Assembly: GCF_000014785.1 (NCBI RefSeq)
Contig: NC_008340.1
Location: 780,001 to 812,000, forward strand
DNA from: Alkalilimnicola ehrlichii MLHE-1
GTDB taxonomy: Bacteria; Pseudomonadota; Gammaproteobacteria; Nitrococcales; Halorhodospiraceae
Direction of reading: 5' to 3'
Length of the DNA: 32,000 bases
Made by a program: the position numbers and the translations under genes. Each line of letters starts with the position of its first letter. The stretch's first letter is position 1. The notes beneath the pieces were generated by a model, which saw only the letters and a program-made list of their open reading frames with translations, was not told the origin of the DNA and made no database searches. Positions 3,775 through 25,905 of this stretch are shown piece after piece.

Positions 3775-4172
3775 TGCGACGCCCCCCACCGTCACTGCGA
3801 GGAGCGAAGCGACGTGGCAGTCCAAGGCCTATGGATCGCCGCGTCGCTTCGCTCCTCGCGATGACGGTGGGATGGGCCGCCCCAGTCACTGCGAGGAGGC
3901 GGAGCCGACGTGGCAGTCTACCGCTCTGGATCGCCACGGGCCTTTGGCCCTCGCGATGACGGGGGGTGCGCCCCCTGTCACTGCGAGGAGCGAAGCGACG
4001 CGGCAGTCTACCCCTCTGGATCGCCACGGGCCTTCGGCCCAGGCGATGACGGAGAGAAGGTCGGCGGCCCTCGCAATGACAGGGGAGATCGTTCGGCGCT
4101 CGCGATGACGGTCTGGCGCGGTGGTCCCCGCAATGACGGTGGGGCCCGGGTCCTCGCGACGTCGGGTCACTG
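3775..4172 (+). repeat. Repeat cluster A of the GTCACTGCGAGG/GTCATCGCGAGG palindromic family (forward orientation; 3 full units then degenerate short modules)
   Basis: Units start at 3791, 3885 and 3977 (spacing 94 and 92 bp). Each reads GTCACTGCGAGGAGCGAAGCGACG.GGCAGTCTACC..CTGGATCGCCACGGGCCTT.GGCCCTCGCGATGAC. The tail holds repeated ..CTCGC(G/A)ATGAC.. modules up to about 4172. Confidence 0.9.
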
Positions 4173-4225
4173 ATCGGTCTGACAATGGTGTTGCCGCGCC
4201 CCGCGGCGGTGGCAGGAGGCAGGAG

Positions 4226-4657
4226 ATGGATGGCAACAGCACTGTGACAACGCCGAACCTCGACGGGATCCGCGCAGCGGTCGCCCGTGGCCGGGAGGCG
4301 GTGTCGGGTGCCGGGGCGCGCCCGGCGACCGATGGCGCTGCGGCGCCGCGACCGGCCTCCGAGTCGGCGCCGGCCTCCGAGCCGGCCCGCGACCCGGCGC
4401 GGGCGGAGGACCCGCGGCGGGGCACCGACCCGACCGCCGAGGAGGTGGGCGAGGCGGTGGATCGCATCAACGAGTTCGTGCAACTGGTCCAGCGCGATCT
4501 GGAGTTCAGCATCGACGAGGATACGGGTCGGACGGTGGTCAAGGTGTTCGACTCGCAGAGCGAGGAGCTCGTCCGGCAGTTCCCGCCGGAGGAGATCCTG
4601 GCCATCGCCGAGCATTTAGAAGAGCTCAAGGGGCTGTTGGTCCGCGAGCAGGCGTAG
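4226..4657 (+). CDS. flaG: FlaG-family flagellar protein (copy 2, paralog)
   Basis: Track ORF 4121..4657 trimmed to the ATG at 4226. That ATG is preceded by GGCAGGAGGCAGGAG, and the upstream extension lies inside the repeat cluster. The C-terminal 73 aa match copy 1 at 53/73 positions (hand count): VDRINEFVQLVQRDLEFSIDEDTGRTVVKVFDSQSEELVRQFPPEEILAIAEHL. Confidence 0.8.
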   Translation: MDGNSTVTTPNLDGIRAAVARGREAVSGAGARPATDGAAAPRPASESAPASEPARDPARAEDPRRGTDPTAEEVGEAVDRINEFVQLVQRDLEFSIDEDTGRTVVKVFDSQSEELVRQFPPEEILAIAEHLEELKGLLVREQA

Positions 4658-4662
4658 GCGCC

Positions 4663-4678
4663 TGGCGCGGTTTTTGTA
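4663..4678 (+). promoter_or_regulatory. sigma54-type promoter candidate upstream of fliD
   Basis: TGGCGCGGTTTTTGTA. The GG(-24) to G(-12) spacing is correct, but the -12 element is TTGT rather than TTGC. It lies 67 nt upstream of the fliD ATG. fliD is RpoN/FleQ-dependent in Pseudomonas. Confidence 0.4.
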
Positions 4679-4744
4679 TGTTGCGCCCGGGGTCGGGCAG
4701 CGCAGGCTGCCGGCACGGTCAACCGAGCAGGGCAGGTGGGTCCA

Positions 4745-6178
4745 ATGGCAAGTATCAGTTCCCTGGGTGTGGGGTCGGGTCTGGATATCCGCGATCTGGT
4801 CGACCAGCTGGTGGCGGCCGAGCGCCAGCCCGGTCAGAACCGGCTGGACCGCCAGGAGTCGCGGCTGGAGGCCCAGATCTCCGGGCTGGGCCGGCTGCAG
4901 CAGGCCATCACCGACTTCGGCGGTGCCCTAGGCAACGTCTCCGCTGAGAGCGACTTCCGCAGCGTGGTGGCCACCAGCAACAACGAGTCGGCGGTCAGCG
5001 TCTCCGCCGGCCGCGACGCCCCACCCGGCAGCTACGACGTCAACGTCACTCAACTGGCCCAGGCCCAGCGGCTCGCCACCAATTCGGACCTGTTCGAGGA
5101 CGTGGAGGACTTCTCGGCGGGCACCACCTCGCTGGGCACCGGCAGCTTCACTATCGAGTACCAGGACGGCAGCGCCGAGACCTTTCAACTGGAGGAAGGG
5201 GCTGACACCCTGCAGGACGTGCGCGCCGCCATCAACAACCAGAGCGAGAACGTGCGTGCCTCGGTGGTGGACGACGGCGAGGGCCCGCGGCTGGTGATCA
5301 CCAGCCGGGAGACCGGCGACCAGAACGCCGTCTCGGCGATCACCGTCGATCCCGACGACCCGGACAGCGACCCGCTGCTGGAGCGGCTGGCATTCGATGC
5401 TGAGAACCTGGCCGAGCCGGACGAGGATGGTGTGCGCGCCGGCGACAACTTTTCCCAGTTGCGCGCTGCGCAGGACGCCGAACTGTTCGTGGACGGACTG
5501 CGAATCACCCGGCCCGGCAATGAGATCAGCGGCGTGATCGATGGCGTCACCCTCACGCTCAGCGCGGTGGACAGCGCCCGGATCAACGTGGCGGAGGAGC
5601 CCGGGTCGGCCGCCTCCGCGGTGAGCGACTTTGTCGGGGCCTACAACAGCCTGCAGCGGACCCTGGGTGAGTTGAACGCCTTCGACCCGGAGTCCGGCGA
5701 GGCGGGTGAGCTCAAGGGCGACTCCACCCTCCGCTCGGTGCAGGCCCGCCTGCGCCAAATGATCAGCGAGCCGCTGCCGGGGGCGGGCGGGCCGGTGCAG
5801 ACCCTCGCGGACCTGGGCATCACCACCCGCCGGGACGGTACCCTGGAGATCAACGACGCCCGGCTGGATGATGCGCTGAGCGAGAACCGGCTGGATGTCA
5901 TCCGTCTGTTCACGGACGAGGAGAACGGGCTGGCCGCGCGCCTGCAAGGCGCCGTGGATGAGTTCACCGGCCGGGACAGCGTGATCAACAGCCGCACCGA
6001 GTCACTGCAGGACCGGCTCGCCGCCCTGGCGCCACAGCAGGAGCGCCTGGACCGGCGGATGGATCAGCTGGAGGCGAGGCTGATCCGCCAGTTTTCCGCC
6101 ATGGACTCGATGATCGCGCAGATGAACCAGACCAGCGAGTTCCTGGATAACCAGCTTAACCTGTTGAATCAGCAATAG
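4745..6178 (+). CDS. fliD: flagellar filament cap protein
   Basis: Track ORF 4736..6178. The ATG at 4745 is preferred (AGGTGGG 7 nt upstream). The N-terminus MASISSLGVGSGLDIRDLVDQLVAAERQP and the C-terminal coiled region (RLIRQFSAMDSMIAQMNQTSEFL) are typical of FliD. Confidence 0.92.
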   Translation: MASISSLGVGSGLDIRDLVDQLVAAERQPGQNRLDRQESRLEAQISGLGRLQQAITDFGGALGNVSAESDFRSVVATSNNESAVSVSAGRDAPPGSYDVNVTQLAQAQRLATNSDLFEDVEDFSAGTTSLGTGSFTIEYQDGSAETFQLEEGADTLQDVRAAINNQSENVRASVVDDGEGPRLVITSRETGDQNAVSAITVDPDDPDSDPLLERLAFDAENLAEPDEDGVRAGDNFSQLRAAQDAELFVDGLRITRPGNEISGVIDGVTLTLSAVDSARINVAEEPGSAASAVSDFVGAYNSLQRTLGELNAFDPESGEAGELKGDSTLRSVQARLRQMISEPLPGAGGPVQTLADLGITTRRDGTLEINDARLDDALSENRLDVIRLFTDEENGLAARLQGAVDEFTGRDSVINSRTESLQDRLAALAPQQERLDRRMDQLEARLIRQFSAMDSMIAQMNQTSEFLDNQLNLLNQQ

Positions 6179-6200
6179 TCGCGTCGGGCACAGGAGCCAT

Positions 6201-6700
6201 CCCCGTGATCGCGAGGGCCGAAGGCTTTTTTCCCGTCATCGCGAGGGCCGGAGGCCCGTGGCGATCCAGGGCGGTAGACTGCCGCGTCGCTTCGCTCCTC
6301 GCAGTGACAGGGGGCGCACCCCCCGTCATCGCGAGGGCCGAAGGCCCGTGGCGATCCAGAGGGGTAGACTGCCACGTCGCTTCGCTCCTCGCAGTGACAG
6401 GGGGCGCACCCCCCGTCATCGCGAGGGCCGGAGGCCCGTGGCGATCCGGAGGGGTAGACTGCCGCGTCGCTTCGCTCCTCGCAGTGACAGGGGGCGCACC
6501 CCCCGTCATCGCGAGGGCCGGAGGCCCGTGGCGATCCGGAGGGGTAGACTGCCACGTCGCTTCGCTCCTCGCAGTGACAGGGGGCGCACCCCCCGTCATC
6601 GCGAGGGCCGGAGGCCCGTGGCGATCCAGGGCGGCAGACTGCCGCGTCGGCTTCGCCTCCTCGCAGTGACGGTGGGGTGTGGGGGCGTGCTCGCAGTGAC
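6201..6700 (-). repeat. Repeat cluster B: the same family in reverse orientation, as a near-perfect 90-bp tandem array (~5 units) plus flanking short modules
   Basis: Units begin at 6241, 6331, 6421, 6511 and 6601, exactly 90 bp apart. Each reads GCGAGGGCCG(G/A)AGGCCCGTGGCGATCC(AGGGC/AGAGG/GGAGG)GGTAGACTGCC(G/A)CGTCGCTTCGCTCCTCGCAGTGACAGGGGGCGCACCCCCCGTCATC. Only about 5 positions vary among the first four units. Confidence 0.95.
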
Positions 6701-6759
6701 TGGGGAGGGCATGTGGCCCTGTCCCGGGGGAGCGGGGCACTGGTGCCGAAACACCACTA

Positions 6760-6786
6760 TCAAGTCCGGGGATGAATGGTCGCTAA
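6760..6786 (+). promoter_or_regulatory. sigma28-type promoter candidate upstream of fliS
   Basis: TCAAGTCC(6760-6767)-N11-GTCGCTAA(6779-6786). TCAAG is the Pseudomonas-style -35 variant. It lies 40 nt upstream of the fliS ATG. Confidence 0.35.
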
Positions 6787-6826
6787 CAATGGGTGACAAT
6801 CACCCAATCAGCAGAGGGCAGCGGGA

Positions 6827-7264
6827 ATGAGCTACGCAGCCATGAACAGCGGAATCGATCAGTATCAGCAGGTGGGGGCCTACAGCGGGGCGGCTTACGC
6901 CGATCCGCACCGGCTCATCGAAATGCTGCTCGATGGTGGCATCGACCGGCTCGCCCAGGCCAAGGGAGCACTGCACCAGGGCGATCGCGCCCTCAAGAGC
7001 CAGCTTATCGGCAAGGCCATCGCCATTATCGACGGGCTGCGCGGCGGGCTGGACCGCAAGGCCGGCGGCGAGCTGGCGCAGAACCTTGACGAGCTGTATG
7101 ATTACATGCAGCGACGGCTGGTCTCGGCCAACGCCCGCAACGACGAGGCCATACTCGACGAGGTCTCCAAGCTGCTCAACGAGATCCGCGATGCCTGGCA
7201 GGCGATCCCCGCCGAGCTGCGTGACAAGGAGGCGGCGGAGCGCGCCGCACGCTCCGGGCGCTGA
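6827..7264 (+). CDS. fliS: flagellin-specific chaperone FliS
   Basis: 145 aa. YADPHRLIEMLLDGGIDRLAQAKGAL...KAIAIIDGLRGGLD...GGELAQNLDELYDYMQRRLVSANARND matches the FliS four-helix pattern. Synteny follows fliD. An alternative ATG at 6842 is possible. Confidence 0.9.
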   Translation: MSYAAMNSGIDQYQQVGAYSGAAYADPHRLIEMLLDGGIDRLAQAKGALHQGDRALKSQLIGKAIAIIDGLRGGLDRKAGGELAQNLDELYDYMQRRLVSANARNDEAILDEVSKLLNEIRDAWQAIPAELRDKEAAERAARSGR

Positions 7265-7266
7265 TC

Positions 7267-7602
7267 ATGCCCCTGCCCCGCGACGAGGCGATGCTGGAGG
7301 CGGCCATCGAGCTGGAGCACCTGGCCCGGCGCCGCCTCGAGCTGGCCCGCTCGGAGCGGTGGGATGAGCTCGTCGCCAGCGAGACCCGACGCGGTGAGTT
7401 GGCCCGCGCCATCGATCCTTCCTCTGTCCACGCCCCCGATCTGCAACAGGCCCTGGTGACCCGGCTGCGTCGGATCACCGACATGGACGACCAACTGCGC
7501 CCCCTTTTGGAAGGGCGGCTGGAGGAGCTGGGCCGTACCCTCCTCGACGCCCGCAAGGGCGCGGCTGGCAACCGCGCCTACCAACGCTTCCGTGGTGACT
7601 GA
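7267..7602 (+). CDS. fliT: FliT-like flagellar chaperone (small helical protein)
   Basis: 111 aa, Leu/Arg/Glu-rich and helical. Its ATG is 2 nt after the fliS stop, the same position as fliT in Pseudomonas fliS-fliT-fleQ. The call rests mainly on synteny. Confidence 0.5.
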   Translation: MPLPRDEAMLEAAIELEHLARRRLELARSERWDELVASETRRGELARAIDPSSVHAPDLQQALVTRLRRITDMDDQLRPLLEGRLEELGRTLLDARKGAAGNRAYQRFRGD

Positions 7603-7707
7603 CCTGTCGCGAGTGTTAAACCGTCCGCCGTATTTTTGACGGCGATAATACGAAAGCACTAGACTGCCCGCATTAGTTGCCTGGGATTTTCCTTGGGGGG
7701 ATGCGTA

Positions 7708-9375
<1,668 letters not shown>

Positions 9376-9377
9376 GC

Positions 9378-9419
9378 GACGGCGGGCCGCCGGTCCCGCC
9401 GGCAAGCCGTCGGTTTTTC
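9378..9419 (+). terminator. Rho-independent terminator after fleQ
   Basis: Outer stem GACGGC(9378-9383)/GCCGTC(9406-9411), inner GCCGG/CCGGC stem, followed by GGTTTTTCG. Confidence 0.6.
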
Positions 9420-9498
9420 GTCGAGCCACAATGTTGCCGTCTGACAGGTCATTTCCGCTTACCAGAAAGAACTAGTTAAATCAGCAGGCTGCATACCC

Positions 9499-9514
9499 TG
9501 GCACGCCCCGTGCT
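9499..9514 (+). promoter_or_regulatory. sigma54 (RpoN) promoter for the fleR-like gene and fliEFGHIJ
   Basis: TGGCACGCCCCGTGCT matches TGGCACG-N4-TTGCW at every position but one, with exact GG-N10-GC spacing. It lies 59 nt upstream of the ATG at 9573. Confidence 0.65.
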
Positions 9515-9572
9515 TCCTTGCCGCTCACAGTCATCGGTGGCCCGACCCGGGCAAGGAAAACGAGGTAACACC

Positions 9573-14154: not shown

Positions 14155-15042
14155 ATGAACGACAAGACCCGGCACAAGACCGGCGCGGCGGGCGAGGGCG
14201 CTGAGGCCGGCCGCGGCCGGGTACGGATCATCCCCGCCGAGGCGGCCGGCGAGACCTTCGCCCGCTGGGCGGCGGCGCCGAAGCCGGAGCGAGGCCAGGC
14301 CCCGGAACGGCCGGAGGCAAGCCAGCGTGCAAGTGGTGGGCAGCGGGACTACGCCGGCTTCCGCAAGCCGCAGCGCCGCGAGGCCGCGCGCATGCCCACC
14401 GCGGCGGATATTGAGGCGCTGCAGCAGCAGGCCTGGGACGAGGGCTACCGGGCCGGCGAGCGGGCCGGCCGCGAGGCCGGTTACGCCGAGGGCCACCGGG
14501 AGGGGCTGGAGGCCGGGCAGCGCGAGGGCCACGCCGCGGGCTACCAGGCCGGCGAGCAGGCCGCGCACCGGCTGGTGGAGCGGATGGACGGGCTGGTGCG
14601 CCAACTGGACCGGCCATTGGAGCAGATGGACGAGGAGGTGGAGCAGGCGCTGGCGGAGCTGGCCATGCACCTGGCCCGGCAGGTGATCTACCGCGAGCTG
14701 CGCATCCAACCCGGTGAGATCGTGCGCCTGATCCGCGAGGCCGTGGGATTGCTGCCGGTGGGCGCCCGCAACGTGGAGGTGCACCTGCACCCGGAAGACG
14801 CCCGCTTTATCCGCGAGGCCCTGAGCGCCGATGGCGGGGGCGAACAGGCGTGGCGGCTGGTGGAGGACCCGGCCATCAACCGTGGCGGCTGCCGGGTCAG
14901 CACGGAGACCTCGCATATCGACGCCACCCTGGAGCATCGTCTGGCCCAGTTGGCGCAACAGGTGCTGGGCAACGGCCGTGACGCTCAGGGCGAGGACGGC
15001 GATGGCACGGATCGTAACGCAGAGGCTGGTCGCCATGAGTGA
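14155..15042 (+). CDS. fliH: flagellar assembly protein FliH
   Basis: 295 aa. It has an Ala/Glu/Arg-rich coiled region ([28 protein letters not shown]) and a FliH C-domain ([13 protein letters not shown] ... [20 protein letters not shown]). Synteny fliG-fliH-fliI. Confidence 0.85.
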
Positions 15043-16919: not shown

Positions 16920-16938
16920 GCCGGAACAAAGGCCTTAG

Positions 16939-17330
16939 GGATCGCCACGTCGCTGCGCTCCTCTTGAAGAACTTGACTGTGCCGGCAGCGGAAGGTCGCC
17001 CCCACCGTCACTGCGAGGAGGCGAAGCCGACGCGGCAGTCTACCGCCCTGGATCGCCACGGGCCTTCGGCCCTCGCGATGACGGGGGGAGGGGCCACCCC
17101 GTCACTGCGAGGAGGCGAAGCCGACGCGGCAGTCTACCGCCCTGGATCGCCACGGGCCTTCGGCCCTCGCGATGACGGGGGGAGGGGCCACCCCGTCACT
17201 GCGAGGAGCGAAGCGACGCGGCAGTCTACCCCTCTGGATCGCCACGGGCCTTCGGCCCTCGCGATGACGGGGAGGAGGTGGCGGCCCTCGCGATGACGGG
17301 GGAAAGCCTTCGGCCCTGGCGATGCCAGGG
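16939..17330 (+). repeat. Repeat cluster C (forward orientation; 3 units at 94-bp spacing plus a head module and short tail modules)
   Basis: Units start at 17007, 17101 and 17195. The first two carry the GAGGAGGCGAAGCCGACG variant and the third GAGGAGCGAAGCGACG. The tail modules are GGCCCTCGCGATGACGGGG. Confidence 0.9.
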
Positions 17331-17415
17331 ATGCCCCGTTCCTCGTTGATTCGGGCCCGCGTAGCGAGGAGTGGGGCTCACGATGACGCGTGCGCCGTCC
17401 CCGGGTAGACGGCAT

Positions 17416-17431
17416 TGGCCCCGATATTGCT
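17416..17431 (+). promoter_or_regulatory. sigma54-type promoter candidate for fliK
   Basis: TGGCCCCGATATTGCT, with correct GG-N10-GC spacing and a TTGCT -12 element. It lies 73 nt upstream of the fliK start. Confidence 0.55.
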
Positions 17432-18631: not shown

Positions 18632-18642
18632 CGCGCCCCGCC

Positions 18643-18866
18643 GTCACTGCGAGGAGCGAAGGGGCGCGGCAGTCCAAGCCGGGGTGTGGATCGCCGCGTC
18701 GCTGCGCTCCTCGCGATGACGGGGGTGGTGTCTCCCCCGCCGTCGGCGTGGTGCCTCCCCTCCCCCACCGTCACTGCGAGGAGGCGAAGCCGACGCGGCA
18801 GTCTACCGCTCTGGATCGCCACGGGCCTGCGGCCCTCGCGATGATGGGGGGAAGCCTTCGGCCCCT
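18643..18866 (+). repeat. Repeat cluster D (forward orientation; one long-palindrome unit and one standard unit)
   Basis: Units start at 18643 (GTCACTGCGAGGAGCGAAGGGGCGCGGCAGTCCAAG...GGATCGCCGCGTCGCTGCGCTCCTCGCGATGAC) and at 18770 (GTCACTGCGAGGAGGCGAAGCCGACGCGGCAGTCTACCGCTCTGGATCGCCACGGGCCTGCGGCCCTCGCGATGAT). The cluster begins 12 nt after the fliK stop. Confidence 0.88.
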
Positions 18867-18877
18867 GTCCTGCGCCG

Positions 18878-18905
18878 CTTGAACTCCCGCGCCTTGCCCC
18901 AATCT
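18878..18905 (+). promoter_or_regulatory. sigma32 (heat-shock)-like promoter candidate for htpX
   Basis: CTTGAAC(18878-18884)-N12-CCCCAATCT(18897-18905) against the E. coli consensus CTTGAA-N13-17-CCCCATNT. htpX is heat-shock-regulated in E. coli. Motif match only. Confidence 0.4.
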
Positions 18906-18995
18906 AAGCCCTAGGATAATTTGAACGGCCGCTCCGGCACCCCCCTCGCCGGAGTGCGGTTTGGGCTGCTTACATAACCGGGAGATCAAGCGACG

Positions 18996-19901: not shown

Positions 19902-19943
19902 CGGCGAGTCGCGCCACGGCGGCGTGCAAACCAAGTAGACTCG

Positions 19944-19986
19944 GGGTGCCGTCCTGCCGGCGAGGTGGGGCGGCACCCTTGTTTTC
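19944..19986 (+). terminator. Rho-independent terminator after htpX
   Basis: GGGTGCCG(19944-19951) pairs with CGGCACCC(19971-19978), followed by TTGTTTTCG. Confidence 0.6.
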
Positions 19987-20013
19987 GTCGGGGGGTCGGT
20001 CAAGGGGGGGTAG

Positions 20014-20955: not shown

Positions 20956-20997
20956 CGGCAGCCCGGGGCCTTCTGTGGCCGGCCCGGCGGGCTGCCG
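20956..20997. terminator. Stem-loop between convergent genes (possible bidirectional terminator)
   Basis: CGGCAGCCCG(20956-20965) pairs with CGGGCTGCCG(20988-20997). There is no clear U-tract. Confidence 0.4.
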
Positions 20998-21009
20998 CGA
21001 CGCGGCGCC

Positions 21010-21264
21010 TCACGCCTCGTCGGGGGTAAGGGCCTTGATCCCCAGGGCGTGGATGATGTCGTTGCGCATGGCATCACCCATGGCGCCGTAGACCTTGCGA
21101 TGGCGCTGTAGGGTGTTCAGCCCCGCAAAGTCCGGGCTGACCACCCGCACCTGGTAGTGCCCGCCCCCGGCTTGGGCCCCGGCGTGACCGGCGTGCTTGT
21201 GGCTGTCGTCCTGGATCTCCAGGCTGTGGACATCCAATGCCTGCTCCAGGCGCTGGCGGATCAT
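21010..21264 (-). CDS. bolA: BolA-family protein
   Basis: This is only the C-terminal part of track ORF 21010..21810(-). MIRQRLEQALDVHSLEIQDDSHKHAGHAGAQAGGGHYQVRVVSPDFAGLNTLQRHRKVYGAMGDAMRNDIIHALGIKALTPDEA fits BolA (..DeS..H.. / ..RHR.vY..l...I HAL.i.a.TP.E). An alternative GTG start at 21288 overlaps the yciI stop (GTGA). Confidence 0.82.
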   Translation of the reverse strand: MIRQRLEQALDVHSLEIQDDSHKHAGHAGAQAGGGHYQVRVVSPDFAGLNTLQRHRKVYGAMGDAMRNDIIHALGIKALTPDEA

Positions 21265-21284
21265 CTCAACGCGTTCGTTTCCAC

Positions 21285-21584
21285 TCACGGCAACACCTTC
21301 TTGAACGGCTTGACGGTGACCCTTTCGTAGGCACCCACATCCAGGTAGGGGTCGGCATTGGCCCACGCCTTTGCCGCCTCCAGGCTGGGAAACTCCGCGA
21401 CCACCAGGCTGCCGGAGAAACCCGCCTCGCCCGGATCCTCGGCGTCGATGGCCGGGTGGGGGCCGGCGATCAGCAGCCGGCCCTCGTCCCTTAGGGCCTC
21501 CAGCCGTGCCAGGTGGGCGGGCCGGGCCTCTTTGCGCAAGGGCAGGCTGTTGGGCACGTCCTCGCTGATGATGGCGTAATACAT
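21285..21584 (-). CDS. yciI: YciI-family protein
   Basis: 99 aa. [44 protein letters not shown]...[23 protein letters not shown] is the typical YciI fold signature. Confidence 0.85.
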
Positions 21585-21778
21585 GGCGCTCCCTCAGGTA
21601 CAGGAATGACTGGACGGATATGCTACACCGCCCTGCCGCGGAGTAGCAGCCCGGACCGGGCCTGGCGCCGGCCACCGTCGTGCATGATAGGGTGACAGTG
21701 CCATGATTACGGGATACCGAGCTGATCGGTGTGCCCGCAAGAATAACAGCGAACCGGCAGCACTCAGGAGGAGCGCCC

Positions 21779-22402
21779 ATGAGCCAGTACTTTGAGATCC
21801 ACCCCGTCACCCCTCAGGTTCGCCTGGTGAAACGGACCGTGGAGATCATCCGCGCGGGCGGTGTCATCGCCTACCCCACCGACTCCAGTTACGCGTTGGG
21901 TTGCGGCATCGGGGAGAAGCAGGCCGTGGACCGCATCCGCCAGATCCGCCGTCTGCGCGAGGACCACAACTTCACCCTGGCCTGCCGCGATCTCTCCGAT
22001 ATCGGCACCTACGCCCGGGTGGAGAACTACGCCTACCGCCTGCTCAAGTCGCACACCCCGGGCCCCTACACCTTCATCCTGAAGGCCACCTCCAAGGTGC
22101 CCCGTCTGCTCCAGCACCCGAAGAAAAAGACCATCGGCATCCGCGTGCCCGACCACCCCACCACCCAGGCCATCCTGGAAGAGCTGGGCGAGCCGCTGAT
22201 GACGGTCAGCCTCATCATGCCCGATGACGACATGCCTATCACCGACCCGGTGGACATTCGCGCGGCCCTGGAGCACCAGGTGGATGCCGTCATCGACGGC
22301 GGTCCCGGCGGGTTGGAGCCCAGCACCGTGGTGGATCTCTCCGGTGAGGCCCCGCGGGTCCTGCGCGAGGGTGCCGGCGATCCGTCGGTCTTCGAGGGCT
22401 GA
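21779..22402 (+). CDS. yciO: YciO (Sua5/YrdC/YciO family, threonylcarbamoyl-AMP synthase paralog)
   Basis: Track ORF 21731..22402 trimmed to the ATG at 21779 (AGGAGGAG SD). MSQYFEIHPVTPQVRLVKRTVEIIRAGGVIAYPTDSSYALGCGIGEKQAVDRIRQIRRLREDHNFTLACRDLSDIGTYA closely parallels E. coli YciO as I recall it ([42 protein letters not shown]...NFTLMCRDLSELSTY). Confidence 0.9.
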   Translation: MSQYFEIHPVTPQVRLVKRTVEIIRAGGVIAYPTDSSYALGCGIGEKQAVDRIRQIRRLREDHNFTLACRDLSDIGTYARVENYAYRLLKSHTPGPYTFILKATSKVPRLLQHPKKKTIGIRVPDHPTTQAILEELGEPLMTVSLIMPDDDMPITDPVDIRAALEHQVDAVIDGGPGGLEPSTVVDLSGEAPRVLREGAGDPSVFEG

Positions 22403-22410
22403 GGCGGAGA

Positions 22411-22690
22411 GCGGATTCGGTTATCATCGCCCTCCGAGTGGCACGTTCAGCGGGCTGCAGTGGCCGGGGCGTATGGCCGGCAGGCCGACTTTTGCGCACC
22501 GAGCAACGCAGCAAATGAGCGGAAACAAGGCGCGCCTGTTCGAGCGAAGCGAGTTCGCGCCGCCGCTCCTTTGCGAGTAGCGCAGGGCACCCCGAAGGGG
22601 TGCGCAATTGGAGGCCTGCCGGCCATACGCCCCGGCCACTGCAGACCGCTGAGCCCGGCACGCAAAGCCACAGAACCCGAATCGGCCTGA
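22411..22690. repeat. Long imperfect palindrome / MITE-like element; the core is a 39-bp inverted repeat at 22448-22486 and 22613-22651
   Basis: The left arm is CAGCGGGCTGCAGTGGCCGGGGCGTATGGCCGGCAGGCC. The reverse complement of the right arm is CAGCGGTCTGCAGTGGCCGGGGCGTATGGCCGGCAGGCC (38/39). Inner complementarity is TTGCGCACC (22492-22500) / GGTGCGCAA (22599-22607). The sub-hairpin GCACCCC-GAA-GGGGTGC lies within 22587-22604. Weaker outer complementarity (GATTCGG / CCGAATC) extends to about 22413 and 22688. Confidence 0.6.
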
Positions 22691-22709
22691 TCCACACTGG
22701 AGGCAATCT

Positions 22710-23924
22710 TTGGCCAATCTTAATGCCCAAAGCCGAGTCCTGTCCGGCATGCGGCCCACCGGCCGCCTGCACCTGGGGCACTACCACGGGGTCCTCAAGA
22801 ACTGGGTGCGCCTGCAGCAGGAACACGAGTGCTTCTTCTTCGTGGCCGACTGGCACGCACTCACCACCCAGTACGACGACACCCGCGGCATTGCCCAATC
22901 CGGCTGGGACATGGTCATCGACTGGCTCGCCTGCGGGGTGAACCCCAATATGGCTCGGCTGTTCATTCAGTCCAAGGTGCCCGAGCACGCCGAACTGCAC
23001 CTGCTGCTCTCCATGATCACCCCCCTGGGCTGGCTGGAGCGCGTGCCCACCTACAAGGACCAGCAGGAACAGCTGCGCGAGAAGGACCTGGCCACCTACG
23101 GCTTTCTGGGCTACCCGCTGCTGCAGAGCGCCGACATCCTGGTCTACAAGGCCACCGCCGTGCCCGTGGGCGAGGACCAGGTGGCCCACGTGGAGATCAC
23201 CCGCGAGGTGGCGCGCCGGTTCAACCACTTCTACGGTGTGGAGCCCGACTTCATCGAGCGGGCCGAAGAGGCCATCAAGAAGATGGGCAAGAAGAACGCC
23301 CGGGTCTACCGCGACCTGCGCCGGCGCTACCAGGAGCAGGGCGAGCACGAGGCCCTGGACGTGGCCCGTGCCCTGCTCGACAACCAGCAGAACATCACCC
23401 TGGCGGACCGCGAGCGCCTGCACGGCTACCTGGACGGTACCGGCCGCAACGTCCTGCCCGAGCCCCAGGCCCTGCTCACCCCGCACGCCAAGATGCCGGG
23501 CCTGGACGGACGCAAGATGTCCAAGTCCTACAACAATTTCATCGGCCTGCGTGAGGATGCGGAATCGGTCCGCAAGAAGGTCCGCACCATGCAGACCGAC
23601 CCGGCCCGGGTCCGTCGGACCGACCCGGGCAATCCGGAAAAATGCCCGGTTTGGGACTTTCACAAGCTCTACTCCGGTGAGGCTGATCGAGACTGGGTCT
23701 GGAAGGGCTGCACCACCGCGGGTATCGGCTGCATCGACTGCAAGATGTGCATGCTCGAGGGTATGGAAAAGGAACTGGGGCCCATCCGCGAGCGGGGCCA
23801 TGAGTTCGAGAACGACATGGACACCGTGCGCAGTATCGTCAACGAAGGGTGCGAGGCCGCTCGCAGCGAGGCCCGCGAGACCCTGGACGAAGTGCGCGAT
23901 GCCATGGGGCTGACCTATCGGTGA
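22710..23924 (+). CDS. trpS: tryptophan--tRNA ligase (long form with a C-terminal Cys cluster)
   Basis: 404 aa. TTG start with GGAGG 6 nt upstream. The HIGH motif appears as GRLHLGHYHG and the KMSKS motif as RKMSKS. ECFFFVADWHALTT is typical of TrpRS. Confidence 0.95.
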   Translation: MANLNAQSRVLSGMRPTGRLHLGHYHGVLKNWVRLQQEHECFFFVADWHALTTQYDDTRGIAQSGWDMVIDWLACGVNPNMARLFIQSKVPEHAELHLLLSMITPLGWLERVPTYKDQQEQLREKDLATYGFLGYPLLQSADILVYKATAVPVGEDQVAHVEITREVARRFNHFYGVEPDFIERAEEAIKKMGKKNARVYRDLRRRYQEQGEHEALDVARALLDNQQNITLADRERLHGYLDGTGRNVLPEPQALLTPHAKMPGLDGRKMSKSYNNFIGLREDAESVRKKVRTMQTDPARVRRTDPGNPEKCPVWDFHKLYSGEADRDWVWKGCTTAGIGCIDCKMCMLEGMEKELGPIRERGHEFENDMDTVRSIVNEGCEAARSEARETLDEVRDAMGLTYR

Positions 23925-24751
23925 GCGTGATTACCTCCGACAGCGCGGCCCCCGGGCCGGCGGAGGCGCTGGCCGGGGCCGGTGGCCAGGCCCTGGCGCG
24001 GGTCGCCGGGGAGCCGGTCACCGACCTGCCTGAGGACCTCTACATCCCGCCGGATGCGCTGGAGGTCTTCCTGGAGACCTTTGAAGGGCCGCTCGACCTG
24101 CTGCTCTACCTGATTCGGCGCCAGAACCTCGACGTGCGCGATATCCCCATCGCCGAGATCACCCGCCAGTACATGCGTTACGTGGAGCTGATGCACGAAC
24201 TGCGTCTGGAGCTGGCCGCCGAGTATCTGGTGATGGCCGCCATGCTGGCCGAGATCAAGTCACGCATGCTGCTGCCGCGCCCGCCGGCCAGTGAGGAGGA
24301 AGAGGCCGACCCCCGCGCCGAGCTGGTGCGCCGGCTGCAGGAGTACGAGCGCTACAAGCAGGCCGCCGAGGACCTGGACCAGTTACCGCGCCTGGCTCGC
24401 GACGTCTTCCCGGTGCGGGTGGCCGCCGAGGGCTGCCAGCCGCGCCAGCGCGAGCCCGAGGTGAGTATGCAGGAGCTGCTGTTGGCCTTCGCCGAAGTGC
24501 TGCGCCGCTCCAGCCATTACGAACACCACCAGGTGCAGAAGGAGGCCCTGTCTGTGCGCGAGCGCATGACCGAGGTGCTGGGCCGGCTGGATACCGAGCA
24601 CTACTGCTGTTTCACCCAGCTCTTTCCCCGGCGGGAGGGTCGCATGGGCCTGGTGGTGAGCTTTCTGGCGGTGCTGGAATTGGTCAAGGAGGCCCTCATC
24701 GAGCTGACCCAGAACGAACCGTACGCGCCCATCTACGTCCGCGCCCGCTGA
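23921..24751 (+). CDS. scpA: segregation and condensation protein A
   Basis: Track ORF 23849..24751 trimmed to the GTG at 23921, which overlaps the trpS stop (GTGA). FEGPLDLLLYLIRRQNLDVRDIPIAEITRQYMRYVELM is the ScpA signature. Confidence 0.9.
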   Translation: MSVITSDSAAPGPAEALAGAGGQALARVAGEPVTDLPEDLYIPPDALEVFLETFEGPLDLLLYLIRRQNLDVRDIPIAEITRQYMRYVELMHELRLELAAEYLVMAAMLAEIKSRMLLPRPPASEEEEADPRAELVRRLQEYERYKQAAEDLDQLPRLARDVFPVRVAAEGCQPRQREPEVSMQELLLAFAEVLRRSSHYEHHQVQKEALSVRERMTEVLGRLDTEHYCCFTQLFPRREGRMGLVVSFLAVLELVKEALIELTQNEPYAPIYVRAR

Positions 24752-24754
24752 GCC

Positions 24755-25339
24755 ATGCCCGCCAACCCGCCTGTCAAATATGTCCTGGAGGCCGCACTGA
24801 TGGCCGCGGAGGGGACCCTCGATCTGGACCAGATGCAGGGCCTGTTCGACCCGGCGCTGGCCCCCGACCGCCAGACCCTGCGCCAGGCCCTGGCCGAGCT
24901 GCGCCAGGACTACGAGGGCCGCGGGCTGGAGGTGAAACAGGTGGCCAGCGGCTGGCGTATCCAGGTCCGGGAGGCCTACGCCCCCTGGGTTTCAAGGCTG
25001 TGGGAGGAGAAGCCCGGGCGCTACTCCCGGGCCCTGCTGGAGACCCTCGCCATCATCGCCTACCGCCAGCCGGTGACCCGCGGCGAGATAGAGGACATCC
25101 GCGGGGTGACGGTGAGCAGCTCCATCATGCGCACCCTCACCGATCGCGGCTGGGTGCGTATCGTTGGCCACAAGGATGTCCCCGGCCGTCCGGGGCTCTA
25201 CGCCACCACCCCCGCCTTCCTGGATTACTTCAACCTCAGTAGCCTGAGCGAACTGCCCGACCTGACCAGTCTGAACGACCCCGACAACCCGGAAATGGAA
25301 CTGCCCCTGCCGGACCCGGACGACCCGGACGCCCCGTAA
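24755..25339 (+). CDS. scpB: segregation and condensation protein B
   Basis: 194 aa. LSRALLETLAIIAYRQPVTRGEIEDIRGVTVSSSIMRTLTDRGWVRIVGHKDVPGRPGLYATTPAFLDYFNL is the ScpB winged-helix signature. Confidence 0.92.
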   Translation: MPANPPVKYVLEAALMAAEGTLDLDQMQGLFDPALAPDRQTLRQALAELRQDYEGRGLEVKQVASGWRIQVREAYAPWVSRLWEEKPGRYSRALLETLAIIAYRQPVTRGEIEDIRGVTVSSSIMRTLTDRGWVRIVGHKDVPGRPGLYATTPAFLDYFNLSSLSELPDLTSLNDPDNPEMELPLPDPDDPDAP

Positions 25340-25342
25340 ACC

Positions 25343-25905
25343 ATTGCGAGGGCCAAAGGCTTTCCCCCGTCATCGCGAGGGCCAAAGGCTTTCCCCCGTC
25401 ATCGCGAGGGCCGAAGGCTTTCCCCCCGTCATCGCGAGGGCCGAAGGCCCGTGGCGATCCAGAGGGGTAGACTGCCACGTCGCTTCGCTCCTCGCAGTGA
25501 CGATGGAGGTGGGTCCGCAGTGACGGTGGGGGCGACTTGCCGCTTCCGGTACAGTCCAGTTCTTCAAGAGGGCCGCCGCCTCCTCCCCGTCATCGCGAGG
25601 GCCGAAGGCCCGTGGCGATCCAGAGGGGTAGACTGCCACGTCGGCTTCGCCTCCTCGCAGTGACGGTGGGGGTGGGCCTCCTCGCAGTGACGGTGGGGGG
25701 TGCCCCTTCCCGCAGTTACGGTGGGGGTGCCCCTTCCCGCAGTGACGGTGGGGACGGCACCACCCCCGTCATCGCGAGGAGCGCAGCGACGCGGCGATCC
25801 AGACGCCCGCCTGGACTGCCACGCCCCCGCCGGGGGGTCGCCGTGAAGGTGGGGTTGGGCCGCGCTCGTAGTGGCGGTAGGGACGGCACCACCCCCGCGA
25901 TGCCG
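25343..25905 (-). repeat. Repeat cluster E (mostly reverse orientation; mosaic of short tandem modules, two standard units, a head module and a partial long-palindrome arm)
   Basis: It contains three copies of (C)GTCATCGCGAGGGCC(A/G)AAGGCTTTCCCC at 25343-25440. Standard units lie at about 25425-25500 and 25587-25672. Four copies of (CCT)CGCAGT(G/T)ACGGTGGGG.. lie at about 25650-25755. GTCATCGCGAGGAGCGCAGCGACGCGGCGATCCAG lies at about 25767-25803. The cluster fills the gap between convergent scpB and the small minus-strand ORF. Confidence 0.9.

What the first reader, a model, noticed from the sequence alone, without database searches (positions are those of the whole stretch)
3775..25905. One modular palindromic repeat family fills five intergenic blocks, four of them at flagellar transcription-unit boundaries
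Seen in sequence: the 12-nt boxes GTCACTGCGAGG and GTCATCGCGAGG and their reverse complements recur about 38 times by my hand count. They are confined to five blocks: 3775-4172 (+), 6201-6700 (-), 16939-17330 (+), 18643-18866 (+) and 25343-25905 (-). Together these are about 2.1 kb, roughly 6-7% of the window. None lies inside a confidently called CDS. Four blocks start within 25 nt of a stop codon (fliD, fliJ, fliK, scpB). The full unit is 90-94 bp: GTCACTGCGAGGAGCGAAGCGACGYGGCAGTCTACC..CTGGATCGCCACGGGCC-loop-GGCCCTCGCGATGAC + a G-run/C-run spacer. Each block borders a motif-predicted promoter: sigma28 at 3733 and 6760, sigma54 at 17416, sigma32-like at 18878. Established knowledge: REP/BIME elements in Enterobacteria and Pseudomonas are short GC-rich extragenic palindromes that cluster in mixed orientation, stabilise or terminate transcripts, and are mobilised by RAYT transposases. 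Inference: this is a REP/BIME-like family with unusually long composite units. It effectively partitions fliC-flaG | flaG2-fliD | fliS-fliT ... fliJ | fliK | htpX. I do not recognise it as a named family, and no RAYT-like gene is in the window.
Basis: partly seen in the sequence, partly recalled or inferred. Interest (0 to 1): 0.75.

Follow-up and report, generated by a model that had tools for sequence, protein, structure and literature searches.

The report
Ssn-type hairpin repeat arrays

Summary
There are 33 exact and 44 near-exact boxes (about 0 expected by chance). All family copies lie in five intergenic blocks totalling about 2.1 kb.

The basic unit is a 36-38 nt arm, not the 90-bp unit: (C/T)GTC tag, 5-bp basal stem A[YY]GC/GC[RR]T, GA/GNR internal loop, apical stem with a GNA triloop, then a 3' C. 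Arms pair tail-to-tail into about 75-bp heterodimers (ACTGC arm + ATCGC arm), which are amplified in tandem every 90-94 bp.

Covariation shows that each arm folds on its own. The same box architecture occurs in at least 14 phylum-level groups.

The arms fit the CGTC-tagged REP superfamily (Di Nocera 2013), which equals the Ssn-related motifs of Chenal 2025. Their partner is SsnA, a roughly 95-aa GIY-YIG ssDNA endonuclease.

A near-identical genome (CP184336.1) encodes an SsnA homologue 1.46 Mb from the flagellar locus. The same arms abut that gene. No RAYT was found.

The arrays differ in unit number between two strains that are 99.6% identical. In a sister species they are absent or reduced to a single arm, although the promoters are conserved there.

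The published SRM motif matches 0 of 30 arms. Verdict: a new member of a known kind. 'REP/BIME-like' is right, RAYT is wrong, and transcript punctuation is untested.

The parts
3775..4172 (+). Block 1. Three heterodimers (3790-3866, 3884-3961, 3976-4051), ACTGC arm first, then four decayed half arms (boxes at 4069-4164). Lies between the sigma28-like motif and flaG.
6201..6701 (-). Block 2. Five heterodimers in a 90-bp tandem array (6234-6309, 6324-6399, 6414-6489, 6504-6579, 6594-6671), ATCGC arm first, plus partial arms at both ends. Starts 23-26 nt after the fliD stop.
   Evidence: (4.9 copies, 95% matches)
16939..17388 (+). Block 3. A partial arm (16939-16966), three heterodimers with a 94-bp period (17006-17083, 17100-17177, 17194-17269), then 29-nt half-arm repeats. 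Starts 20 nt after the fliJ stop. The other strain has six heterodimers here.
18642..18866 (+). Block 4. One complete heterodimer (18642-18721) and one with a degenerate right tag (18769-18846). Starts 11 nt after the fliK stop. The site is empty in the sister species and about 220 bp longer in strain CP184336.1.
25340..25905 (-). Block 5. Fills the whole gap between the convergent genes scpB and a 75-aa ORF. Contains a 29-nt half-arm array (25342-25448), two heterodimers (25427-25502, 25588-25665), a 27-nt half-arm array (25656-25753) and a decayed dimer starting at 25767.
17006..17043 (+). Representative ACTGC-type arm: CGTC | ACTGC GA G-GA-GGC GAA GCC-GA-C GCG GCAGT | CTAC.
17048..17083 (-). 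Representative ATCGC-type arm: CGTC | ATCGC GA GGGCC GAA GGCCC GTG GCGAT | CCAG.
   Evidence: (DNA fold -9.1 kcal/mol, z = -2.0)
3664..3692 (+). Context: intrinsic-terminator-like hairpin followed by a T-rich tail (TTTATTGTGT), upstream of block 1.
3733..3759 (+). Context: sigma28-like motif TAAAGTTA-N11-GCCGTTAT, upstream of block 1.
   Evidence: read; consensus from own knowledge; function not tested
4226..4657 (+). Context: flaG (Pfam FlaG domain). Its start lies 54 nt after block 1.
   Evidence: start codon read
6760..6786 (+). Context: sigma28-like motif before fliS, conserved in the sister species L126.
17416..17431 (+). Context: sigma54-type motif TGGCCC-N5-TTGCT before fliK, conserved in the sister species.
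18878..18905 (+). Context: sigma32-like motif CTTGAA...CCCCAATCT before htpX, conserved in the sister species.

Best explanation
The blocks are arrays of a GC-rich, bipartite-stem subfamily of CGTC-tagged REPs (Di Nocera 2013). This class is the same as the Ssn-related motifs of Chenal 2025.

Unit and arrangement. The functional unit is a 36-38 nt arm that folds on its own as a single-stranded DNA hairpin. It has a 5' (C/T)GTC tag, a 5-bp basal stem, a conserved GA/GNR internal loop, a variable apical stem closed by a GNA triloop, and a C directly after the palindrome. Two arm types (ACTGC...GCAGT and ATCGC...GCGAT) face each other tail-to-tail with tags outward, forming about 75-bp heterodimers. 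The dimers are separated by 14-19 nt G-run/C-run spacers and are amplified in tandem.

Partner enzyme. The partner is not a RAYT. It is an SsnA-type single-domain GIY-YIG endonuclease. In Neisseria this enzyme binds such hairpins only as ssDNA and cuts a few nucleotides upstream of the tag. The source species encodes one, and the same arms abut it.

Shown here: the anatomy, the within-arm covariation, the dispersal, the physical linkage of SsnA homologues with these arms, and unit-number changes between strains.

Inferred:
- SsnA recognises these particular arms.
- SsnA-made ssDNA nicks, or ordinary recombination and replication slippage between roughly 90-bp units, make arrays grow, shrink and seed new sites.
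- The arrays persist in gaps downstream of stop codons because insertions are tolerated there.
- When transcribed, the very stable dimer hairpins may block exonucleases or attenuate read-through, as E. coli REPs do.
For: Anatomy:
- 30 complete arms: 24 with CGTC, 5 with TGTC, 1 with AGTC. All have a C right after the palindrome.

Arm-level folding:
- Of 46 informative dimers, 35 keep complementarity within both arms while pairing between arms is broken. None shows the reverse. At least 11 of the 35 come from other taxa.
- On 56 distinct 36-nt arms, pairs 6-31 and 7-30 switch UA<->CG and the basal helix is 99.3% paired.
- Apical pair 15-21 takes GC, AU, CG or UA. The covariation score is 0.248 against 0.110 in shuffles, reached by 0 of 500.
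- The apical stem has at least 2 Watson-Crick pairs in 84% of 238 arms from other taxa, against 11% after shuffling. Loops are GAA 73, GCA 42, GTA 21, GGA 7.

Class membership:
- Tag, tail, tags-outward dimers, heterodimers and position near the 3' ends of ORFs all match the CGTC REP description.

Partner:
- SsnA biochemistry and the SRM association are published.
- P0135 is 60% identical to the N. gonorrhoeae homologue of SsnA (E = 3e-42). It is encoded in CP184336.1 at 2,105,980-2,106,267.
- A 530-bp block of window-type arms starts 25 nt after its stop codon.
- Thioalkalivibrio carries near-identical units of the form [ACTGC arm]-leader-ssnA-[ATCGC arm] inside arrays.
- Four metagenome relatives show the same linkage.
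- In an unbiased sample of homologues, 28 of 35 have an exact inverted repeat of at least 12 nt between their flanks, against 0 of 34 in displaced control windows.
- Six named isolates show the same arrangement.

Dynamics:
- The window and CP184336.1 are 99.6-99.7% identical but differ by three 94-bp units in block 3 and by about 220 bp in block 4.
- In the sister species one site is empty and another holds a single arm.

Dispersal.
Against: - No experiment shows that this SsnA homologue binds or cuts these arms.
- The published SRM search motif matches 0 of 30 arms. Stem and loop dimensions differ from all four described CGTC families.
- The minimum-free-energy fold of a whole dimer is the long inter-arm hairpin.
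- The ACTGC arm alone folds no better than shuffled sequence under nearest-neighbour DNA parameters (z = 0.19). Its stability rests on G.A pairs and GNA mini-hairpins that those parameters treat poorly (own knowledge).
- The ssnA copy in CP184336.1 has arms only downstream.
- The genome-wide copy number could not be counted.
- The role of Ssn outside Neisseria is unknown.
- No data bear on any effect on transcripts.
Confidence: 0.78

Rival explanations
1. This is a classical REP/REPIN system mobilised by a RAYT (IS200/IS605-like Y1 transposase) encoded elsewhere in the genome.
For: The doublet of inverted hairpins and the tandem alternating arrays look like REPINs and BIME-2. RAYTs are usually single-copy, so one could lie outside the DNA I could read.
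Against: - The tag is CGTC, not GTAG.
- Phmmer with E. coli RayT found nothing in the genome loci or in the 615 kb of metagenome and 1.07 Mb of viral-collection loci carrying the elements.
- The literature reports that no tyrosine transposase gene is flanked by CGTC repeats.
- A different nuclease family is physically linked to these arms.
Confidence: 0.05
2. The ssnA gene is only a passenger. It would be a selfish homing-type gene that inserts into pre-existing hairpin repeats, while the repeats spread and persist by other means such as host recombination or selection for a host function.
For: - Two geometries are seen: the gene inside a dimer, and the gene between dimers with tags toward it.
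- ssnA sits inside conserved operons such as sufB|sufC.
- The copy in the source species is one-sided and sits at a fixed locus in several samples.
- Chenal et al. show a role in restricting transforming ssDNA, not in repeat mobility.
Against: - The repeat type co-varies with the SsnA clade.
- 81% of genomes with more than 200 SRMs carry ssnA.
- SsnA homologues each cleave near their own repeat, with only partial cross-specificity among them.
- No other mobilising function is known for these repeats.
Confidence: 0.2
3. The arrays are primarily selected regulatory devices (terminators, insulators or mRNA stabilisers) that define the flagellar transcription units.
For: - Four blocks start within 26 nt of a stop codon, and promoter-like motifs lie next to four of the five blocks.
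- As RNA, the dimers fold at -49 to -74 kcal/mol.
- An E. coli REP acts as a partial terminator and an mRNA stabiliser.
Against: - No T-run follows the hairpins; the only terminator-like site lies outside the blocks.
- One block lies downstream of its promoter motif, and one lies at scpB, which has nothing to do with flagella.
- The sister species keeps the promoters with no element or a single arm.
- More distant relatives have short gaps at these positions.
- Copy number differs between near-identical strains.
- The same elements sit beside unrelated genes in many phyla.
Confidence: 0.1
4. It is a structured non-coding RNA family, or a local duplication private to this locus.
For: Strong hairpins and covariation.
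Against: - No Rfam family reaches threshold in the window or in 18 other loci.
- The element is two-fold symmetric and occurs in both orientations relative to flanking genes.
- GNA triloops and the reported lack of Ssn activity on RNA point to DNA.
- Dispersal is shown within the species and across phyla.
Confidence: 0.03

Closest known systems
Ssn-related motifs (SRM; Neisseria NTS/dRS3) with the SsnA GIY-YIG ssDNA endonuclease (Chenal et al. 2025, PMC11893778)
   Same: - A 5' (C/T)GTC just before a hairpin that starts with A, and a C right after the palindrome.
- Copies that are oriented, dispersed and mostly intergenic.
- An ssnA homologue (60% identical to the Neisseria protein, catalytic Tyr/Tyr/Glu conserved) in the same species, abutted by the repeats.
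- The repeat-ssnA-repeat arrangement in relatives.
   Different: - The arm is 36-38 nt with a 5-bp basal stem, an internal loop and an extra apical stem-loop. The SRM is a simple hairpin of about 28 nt.
- The published SRM search motif matches 0 of 30 arms.
- Two covarying arm types form obligate heterodimers in long tandem arrays.
- No biochemical data exist for this homologue.
- Whether this organism is naturally competent is unknown to me, and the transformation role shown in Neisseria may not apply.
CGTC-tagged REP superfamily, families CGTC-1 to CGTC-4 (Di Nocera, De Gregorio, Rocco 2013, PMC3733652)
   Same: - CGTC/TGTC tag and a stem beginning with A-T.
- A CCA tail on the ATCGC arms.
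- Dimers with tags outward, and heterodimers.
- Location within about 20 nt of the 3' ends of ORFs, including convergent pairs.
- No tyrosine transposase association.
- Strain-to-strain variation in abundance.
   Different: - Described stems are 8-9 bp with 4-5 nt loops. Here the stem is 5 bp, then an internal loop, then 3-5 bp and a triloop.
- The stem sequence A[YY]GCGAG...GC[RR]T matched none of the strings I searched in the paper's text and supplements.
- ACTGC arms end in CTAC rather than CCA.
- Grouped arrays are said to be rare for CGTC elements but dominate here.
- The host is a gammaproteobacterium, whereas most CGTC hosts are alphaproteobacteria.
E. coli REP/BIME-2 and Pseudomonas REPINs with RAYT (TnpA-REP)
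   Same: - Two types of imperfect palindrome alternating in orientation with fixed linkers, amplified in tandem.
- Doublets able to form one long hairpin.
- A trans-acting enzyme specific for ssDNA hairpins that is associated with the repeats and usually present in few copies.
- 3'-UTR location.
   Different: - Unrelated sequence, with a GTAG tag rather than CGTC.
- The enzyme is an HUH/Y1 transposase, not a GIY-YIG nuclease.
- REP/RAYT pairs are lineage-specific, whereas these boxes recur across many phyla.
MITEs such as Neisseria Correia elements
   Same: Short, non-coding, with terminal inverted repeats, intergenic and multicopy.
   Different: No target-site duplication could be seen at the one empty/filled site pair. 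No IS-type transposase is related to the ends. The internal structure is two independent hairpins.

Membership tests
CGTC-tagged REP superfamily (Di Nocera 2013) | Unpaired 5' tag fitting CGTC (variants TGTC, CCTC) | tested here: met
   24 CGTC, 5 TGTC and 1 AGTC among 30 complete arms. In other taxa the base before GTC is C in 163 and T in 77 of 269 arms.
CGTC-tagged REP superfamily (Di Nocera 2013) | [quoted passage not shown] | tested here: inconclusive
   The first pair is A-T in 56 of 56 distinct arms. The second pair is T-A in 42, C-G in 9 and U-G in 4. It covaries, and in the window's ACTGC arms it is C-G.
CGTC-tagged REP superfamily (Di Nocera 2013) | Stem of 8-9 bp and loop of 4-5 nt (families 1-4) | tested here: not met
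   The arm has a 5-bp basal stem, a GA/GNR internal loop, a 2-9 bp apical stem and mostly a 3-nt GNA loop. It therefore belongs to none of the four described families.
CGTC-tagged REP superfamily (Di Nocera 2013) | Short unpaired 3' tail, mostly CCA | tested here: met
   13 of 15 ATCGC arms have a CCA-type tail. ACTGC arms have CTAC (12), CCAA (2) or CTGC (1). In other taxa 131 of 269 tails are CCA.
CGTC-tagged REP superfamily (Di Nocera 2013) | Mostly dimers of inverted units; intergenic, close to the 3' ends of ORFs | tested here: met
   14 complete and 2 decayed dimers, all with tags outward. Blocks start 4-26 nt after stop codons. The elements are depleted in long open frames: 0.27 against 0.72 at random positions.
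Ssn-related motif / SsnA system (Chenal 2025) | Match to the published SRM search sequence HGTCWYN(0-2)YYVSBRHN(0-5)WNVSBRGN(0-2)RNCYNB | tested here: not met
   0 of 30 window arms match, and there are 0 hits in L384 and L388. The positive controls L381, L391, L392 and L394 do match.
Ssn-related motif / SsnA system (Chenal 2025) | GTC directly upstream of the palindrome (needed for cleavage) and C directly after it (needed for binding) | tested here: met
   All 30 arms have GTC before the stem and C after it.
Ssn-related motif / SsnA system (Chenal 2025) | SsnA homologue in the genome (tblastn E < 1e-10): single-domain GIY-YIG of about 94 aa with the catalytic residues | tested here: met
   P0135 (95 aa) is encoded in CP184336.1, a genome 99.6% identical to the window. 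It carries Pfam PF01541. It is 60% identical to the N. gonorrhoeae homologue, E = 3e-42. The Tyr, Tyr, Arg, His, Glu and Asn columns are invariant in alignment A4. The window itself encodes none.
Ssn-related motif / SsnA system (Chenal 2025) | The ssnA gene is flanked by its own repeats | tested here: met
   - L384: arms start 25 nt downstream only.
- L388-L390, L254, L255, L290, L318: arms on both sides.
- Unbiased sample: 28 of 35 against 0 of 34 controls.
Ssn-related motif / SsnA system (Chenal 2025) | The nuclease binds the hairpin as ssDNA and cuts upstream of it | not testable with these tools
   This needs purified protein and oligonucleotides carrying the ACTGC and ATCGC arms.
REP/REPIN-RAYT system | GTAG-type tag, and a RAYT gene flanked by the repeats | tested here: not met
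   The tag is CGTC. No RayT homologue was found in the fetched loci. The whole genome could not be scanned.
BIME (E. coli) | Two REP types alternating in orientation with conserved linkers, tandemly repeated | tested here: met
   ACTGC and ATCGC arms alternate, with a short inner linker between the two arms and a 14-19 nt outer spacer. The period is 90-94 bp, with up to 5 copies here and 6 in L001. This is a resemblance of architecture only; the sequences are unrelated.
MITE | Terminal inverted repeats plus target-site duplication | tested here: inconclusive
   12-nt terminal inverted boxes are present. No clean duplication is visible at the empty and filled fliK-htpX sites, because the flanks have diverged.
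Intrinsic terminator | GC-rich hairpin followed by a T-run | tested here: not met
   The only terminator-like site in 3000-7500 is at 3664-3692, outside the blocks.
Any Rfam RNA family | Covariance-model score at or above the gathering threshold | tested here: not met
   0 hits in the window. Only a tRNA in 18 other loci. Only sub-threshold miRNA-like hairpin hits in block 2.

The most novel reading that the evidence does not exclude
The bipartite-stem arms (CGTC-A[YY]GC-GA-[swappable apical GNA mini-hairpin]-GNR-GC[RR]T-C) are a distinct, pan-bacterial class of Ssn substrates. The published SRM motif cannot see them, so Ssn/repeat systems are much more widespread than the current census suggests. 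The class reaches Patescibacteria, Chloroflexota, Atribacterota and Omnitrophota. Within it, SsnA nicking at the two outward-facing tags of a heterodimer actively drives array expansion and dispersal. SsnA would then play for these repeats the role RAYT plays for REPINs. The two covarying arm types would serve to keep the dimer from being a perfect, SbcCD-sensitive palindrome.
Probability: 0.3. Interest if true: 0.6.

Novelty: new member of a known kind. Interest (0 to 1): 0.4.

Why it matters
- For this genome, it explains about 7% of the window as selfish or semi-domesticated hairpin repeats, not flagellar regulatory design. It also warns that spurious ORFs will be called across the arrays; Mlg_2297 of A. 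ehrlichii MLHE-1 is one.
- It connects two literatures. Di Nocera 2013 left CGTC REPs without a dedicated enzyme. Chenal 2025 describes the NTS, defined there as CGTCATTCCCGCGMAVGCGGGAATCYRG, and does not cite that work. The NTS has the CGTC-1 architecture.
- It shows that a long-stemmed subfamily, found in at least 14 phylum-level groups, escapes the published SRM motif. Censuses of Ssn targets are therefore incomplete.
- Ssn enzymes are being developed as site-specific ssDNA cutters. An SsnA homologue associated with two related but distinct arm types is a ready-made test case for how specificity is read.

Tried and rejected
- Rfam gave nothing, at gathering threshold on the window and on 18 other loci, and at E-value threshold on block 2.
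- Literature searches with the box sequences as words returned only unrelated primer hits.
- All-against-all clustering of ORFs in 120 genome loci found no enriched neighbour gene.
- E. coli RayT, used as a phmmer query, gave no hits.
- The translated array, used as a protein query, gave only 2 hits. One was Mlg_2297, whose DNA could not be fetched.
- ORFs tightly flanked by dimers in IMG/VR contigs are phage portal and baseplate-hub genes; from their Pfam families I read these as GTA- or prophage-like clusters. The repeats there simply occupy gaps, so this is not a lead.
- A strict tagged-hairpin detector missed most imperfect arms. I replaced it with an inverted-repeat test between the flanks.
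- For a while I believed the GIY-YIG link was unreported, because four searches found nothing. A fifth search, adding dRS3 and Neisseria, found Chenal et al. 2025. I withdrew the novelty claim.
- The paper's supplements are not held, so I could not check how its census scored Alkalilimnicola or Thioalkalivibrio.
- BLAST could not define the ends of the duplicated ssnA unit in Thioalkalivibrio, because the flanks are themselves repeats.

Full report
**1. The observation**

The two 12-nt boxes are real and far above chance. GTCACTGCGAGG occurs 16 times and GTCATCGCGAGG 17 times, against expectations of 0.03 and 0.00. With the preceding C and up to two mismatches there are 49 matches against 6.7 expected. 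Of these, 44 lie in five blocks. The other five are two-mismatch matches inside genes, as chance predicts.

Tandem Repeats Finder reports 90-bp arrays (3791-4052; 6232-6670, 4.9 copies at 95% matches) and a 94-bp array (17005-17278). It also reports 27-29 bp sub-arrays.

NCBIfam confirms fliC, fliD, fliS, fliT, two sigma54 activators, fliF, fliJ, fliK, htpX, scpA and scpB. The blocks start 4-26 nt after the stop codons of scpB, fliK, fliJ and fliD.

Two corrections apply:
- The ORF before block 1 is not FlaG. The FlaG domain lies in the frame ending at 4657, and reading one search puts the gene at 4226-4657.
- An intrinsic terminator lies at 3664-3692, and the sigma28-like motif at 3733-3759 lies upstream of block 1. 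Block 1 would therefore be a leader rather than a trailer.

**2. Anatomy**

The informative unit is not the 90-bp repeat but a 36-38 nt arm. A scan that required only the tag and a self-complementary 5-bp stem found 30 complete arms.

Each arm reads, 5' to 3':
- a tag, (C/T)GTC;
- a basal 5' stem, ACTGC or ATCGC;
- GA;
- an apical stem-loop;
- G-N-R;
- the basal 3' stem, GCAGT or GCGAT;
- a tail starting with C (CCAG or CTAC).

One ACTGC arm and one ATCGC arm always face each other tail-to-tail with tags outward. This gives 14 complete and 2 decayed heterodimers of about 75 bp. Dimers are separated by 14-19 nt G-run/C-run spacers. The 27-29 bp sub-arrays are half arms.

**3. Which pairing matters**

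Thermodynamics favours one long hairpin per dimer: -24 to -44 kcal/mol as DNA and -49 to -74 kcal/mol as RNA. Comparative evidence says the arm is the unit.

- I parsed all four boxes independently in 128 dimers from the window and other genomes. Of these, 46 are informative.
- In 35 of the 46, both arms keep internal complementarity while outer-outer and inner-inner pairing is broken. None shows the opposite.
- At least 11 of the 35 come from other taxa.

On a gapless alignment of 56 distinct 36-nt arms, selected without constraining the variable stem positions:
- Pairs 6-31 and 7-30 switch UA<->CG (9 and 16 sequences), and the basal helix is 99.3% paired.
- Apical pair 15-21 takes GC, AU, CG or UA.
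- The covariation score is 0.248 against 0.110 in shuffles (0 of 500 reach it). Slid registers collapse to 20-55% paired.

The apical module is interchangeable but nearly always a hairpin. It has at least 2 Watson-Crick pairs in 84% of 238 arms from other taxa, against 11% after shuffling. The loops are GAA 73, GCA 42, GTA 21 and GGA 7. GCGNAGC-type GNA triloops are known as unusually stable DNA mini-hairpins (own knowledge). This points to single-stranded DNA rather than RNA.

**4. Distribution**

The window is 99.6-99.7% identical to CP184336.1 (GCA_049200435.1). FliI places the organism in the Ectothiorhodospiraceae.

It is probably Alkalilimnicola ehrlichii or a close relative. A protein named from strain MLHE-1 is encoded identically in CP184336.1, and the MLHE-1 ORF Mlg_2297 is a translated array of these repeats. 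This assignment is an inference.

The hits include:
- Alpha-, Beta- and Gammaproteobacteria, deltaproteobacterial lineages and Campylobacterales;
- Bacteroidota isolates (Pedobacter, Mucilaginibacter, Flavobacterium);
- Chloroflexota, Patescibacteria, Planctomycetota and Verrucomicrobiota;
- Cyanobacteria, Aminicenantes, Atribacterota, Omnitrophota, Zixibacteria and others.

These hits share not only the searched outer box but also an unsearched inner box, GAAGCAATCCAG/CTGGATTGCTTC. They are therefore homologous or under the same constraint, not chance matches.

The elements are depleted in long open frames: 0.27 against 0.72 at random positions. The window-type ATCGC arm occurs in 93 metagenome stretches, several of them on the same contig at separate places. 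Short-read assemblies break next to it.

**5. What it is not**

- No Rfam family matches.
- No gene family is enriched next to the elements in 120 loci.
- No RayT homologue appears in about 2.7 Mb of repeat-bearing DNA.
- No T-runs follow the hairpins.

**6. What it is**

The arm fits the CGTC-tagged REP superfamily of Di Nocera et al. 2013. Shared features are the CGTC/TGTC tag, a stem starting with A-T, a CCA tail, inverted dimers that are often heterodimers, a position within about 20 nt of the 3' ends of ORFs including convergent pairs, and strain-variable abundance.

That paper stresses that CGTC repeats, unlike GTAG repeats, 'seem lacking a dedicated transposase'. Its four families have 8-9 bp stems and 4-5 nt loops. 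The peptides encoded by intragenic copies (VIPAKAGI, VIAGLDPAIH) show other stem sequences. The family studied here is therefore not among them.

**7. The partner enzyme**

I looked for ORFs that exactly fill the gap between two boxes. This found a roughly 95-aa GIY-YIG ORF in three metagenome contigs of relatives.

- All six such ORFs in 2.68 Mb of fetched DNA are embedded in CGTC-type repeats. Where the host differs, the repeat subfamily differs.
- In a sample chosen only by protein similarity (38 IMG/VR loci), 28 of 35 testable genes have an exact inverted repeat of 12-34 nt between their flanks. Control windows displaced by 450 nt give 0 of 34. The repeats are tagged REPs.
- Six named isolates show the same: N. 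gonorrhoeae, A. lipoferum (between sufB and sufC), N. aromaticivorans, S. meliloti, Planktothrix and Spirosoma.
- Protein clades go with repeat types.

Most relevant here, CP184336.1 encodes such a protein (P0135) at 2,105,980-2,106,267. That is 1.46 Mb from the flagellar locus. A 530-bp block of window-type ACTGC/ATCGC arms starts 25 nt after its stop codon, and another block lies about 1 kb upstream.

The Thioalkalivibrio nitratireducens chromosome CP003989.2 has two near-identical copies 22 kb apart. A second Thioalkalivibrio chromosome, CP007029.1, has another. All have the form [ACTGC arm]-30-nt leader with AAGGAGG-ssnA-[truncated arm, linker, ATCGC arm] and lie inside arrays.

**8. This link is already published**

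Four literature searches missed it. A fifth found Chenal et al. 2025. Their findings:
- SsnA of N. meningitidis is a 94-aa single-domain GIY-YIG protein of the cd10448 family. It binds the hairpin repeat NTS (CGTCATTCCCGCGMAVGCGGGAATCYRG) only as single-stranded DNA.
- It cuts a few nucleotides upstream of the repeat.
- The three bases before the palindrome matter for cleavage, and the C after it matters for binding.
- dsDNA, RNA and the reverse strand are not substrates.
- 71% of homologues have 'Ssn-related motifs' nearby, and 81% of genomes with more than 200 motifs have ssnA.
- The authors liken NTS-ssnA-NTS to an insertion sequence and to RAYT/REP. They show a role in restricting transforming DNA in Neisseria and leave other hosts open.

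The NTS has the CGTC-1 architecture. That paper does not cite the 2013 work.

P0135 is 60% identical to the gonococcal protein (E = 3e-42). It has no specific NCBIfam model, and its only solved relative by sequence search is a UPF0213 protein. The catalytic Tyr, Tyr, Arg, His, Glu and Asn columns are invariant in my alignment.

All 30 window arms carry GTC before the stem and C after it. However, the published SRM search motif matches none of them, while it does match classical controls. The window family is therefore an undescribed, longer, bipartite member of a known class. Locus L381 shows simple and apically extended arms side by side, which suggests how the bipartite form arose.

**9. Dynamics and the punctuation idea**

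Between two strains 99.6-99.7% identical in flanking DNA:
- block 3 has three against six 94-bp units;
- block 4 differs by about 220 bp;
- block 5 is unchanged.

A sister species (FliI 95% identical) has one degenerate single arm at fliJ-fliK and no element at fliK-htpX. It has at least one dimer at fliD-fliS, where its contig breaks. The sigma54, sigma32-like and sigma28-like motifs are conserved there. In more distant relatives the called genes leave only short gaps at these positions.

So the operon boundaries predate the repeats. The repeats accumulate where insertions are tolerated, and the arrays change by whole units.

E. coli REPs can act as partial terminators and mRNA stabilisers, so an effect on flagellar transcripts is possible. 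Nothing here tests it.

**10. Verdict**

'REP/BIME-like' is correct. RAYT is the wrong partner; SsnA is the documented one for this class and is present in the source species next to the same arms. The 'partitioning' reading is untested and not required.

The kind is known and the subfamily is new. Interest is moderate, and comes mainly from three points:
- this subfamily escapes the published motif;
- it spans many phyla;
- it offers a natural two-arm specificity test for an enzyme family with biotechnological interest.

Noticed in passing
window 14439-14567: An imperfect 48-nt tandem repeat (2.7 copies, 68% matches) lies inside the fliH coding region. It probably encodes a repeated Ala/Gly/Gln-rich peptide segment.
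   Followed up: no
window 3234-3692: The ORFs between fliC and block 1 (3234-3623 and 3265-3678) match no Pfam or NCBIfam family. The longer one runs into the stem of the terminator-like hairpin at 3664-3692.
   Followed up: partly
L126 11620-11680 (sister species, fliK-htpX gap): The empty site carries a (CCCCCT)n-like C-rich tract exactly where the window has its repeat block. The window's arms are also bracketed by C-runs on the 5' side and G-runs on the 3' side. C-runs may be the preferred target, or may be brought in with the element.
   Followed up: no
L381 4290-4780 (ENA contig ctg717518c): Downstream of an ssnA homologue, simple CGTC-1 arms (ATTCCTGC-TTTC-GCAGGAAT) sit next to an array of arms carrying an inserted apical hairpin (CCCTGCCTTCGCAGGG). 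This looks like an intermediate between simple and bipartite arms.
   Followed up: partly
L388, L389, L390 (Thioalkalivibrio chromosomes CP003989.2 and CP007029.1): The ssnA units and their repeat arrays sit in regions dense with toxin-antitoxin and abortive-infection genes (PIN/VapC, PhdYeFM, HicAB, AbiEii, CopG).
   Followed up: no
L384 1-1738 (CP184336.1): The ssnA homologue of the source species lies about 1.3 kb downstream of SbcC-like and JetD (Wadjet-type) genes. A repeat block lies between JetD and TauE.
   Followed up: no
L146, L187, L230, L175, L191, L207, L170 (IMG/VR contigs): In contigs whose phage portal and baseplate-hub Pfam families suggest GTA- or prophage-like clusters, ATTGC-type dimers sit within 30-80 nt of both ends of the portal or baseplate-hub gene. 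The repeats thus also populate phage-derived gene clusters.
   Followed up: partly
L392 (A. lipoferum 4B plasmid AZO_p3): An ssnA homologue with a full repeat dimer on each side is inserted between sufB and sufC, that is, inside a conserved Fe-S assembly operon.
   Followed up: no
protein hits P0123-P0242: Most SsnA homologues recovered from metagenomes and read-archive assemblies sit on contigs shorter than about 2 kb. This fits assemblies breaking in the flanking repeats, so the gene's context is systematically lost in short-read data.
   Followed up: no
L128 (GCA_003399715.1, labelled Alkalilimnicola ehrlichii): This record has 57.6% G+C, and its FliI is only 75% identical to the window's. 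The window has 67.3% G+C and shares an identical protein with strain MLHE-1. The species label of one of these assemblies looks doubtful.
   Followed up: no
L089 (Candidatus Caldatribacterium OP9-77CS, 2.9-kb contig): Fourteen outer boxes in 2.9 kb: a dense array of the same family in an Atribacterota single-cell or metagenome assembly, including ACCGC-type arms.
   Followed up: no
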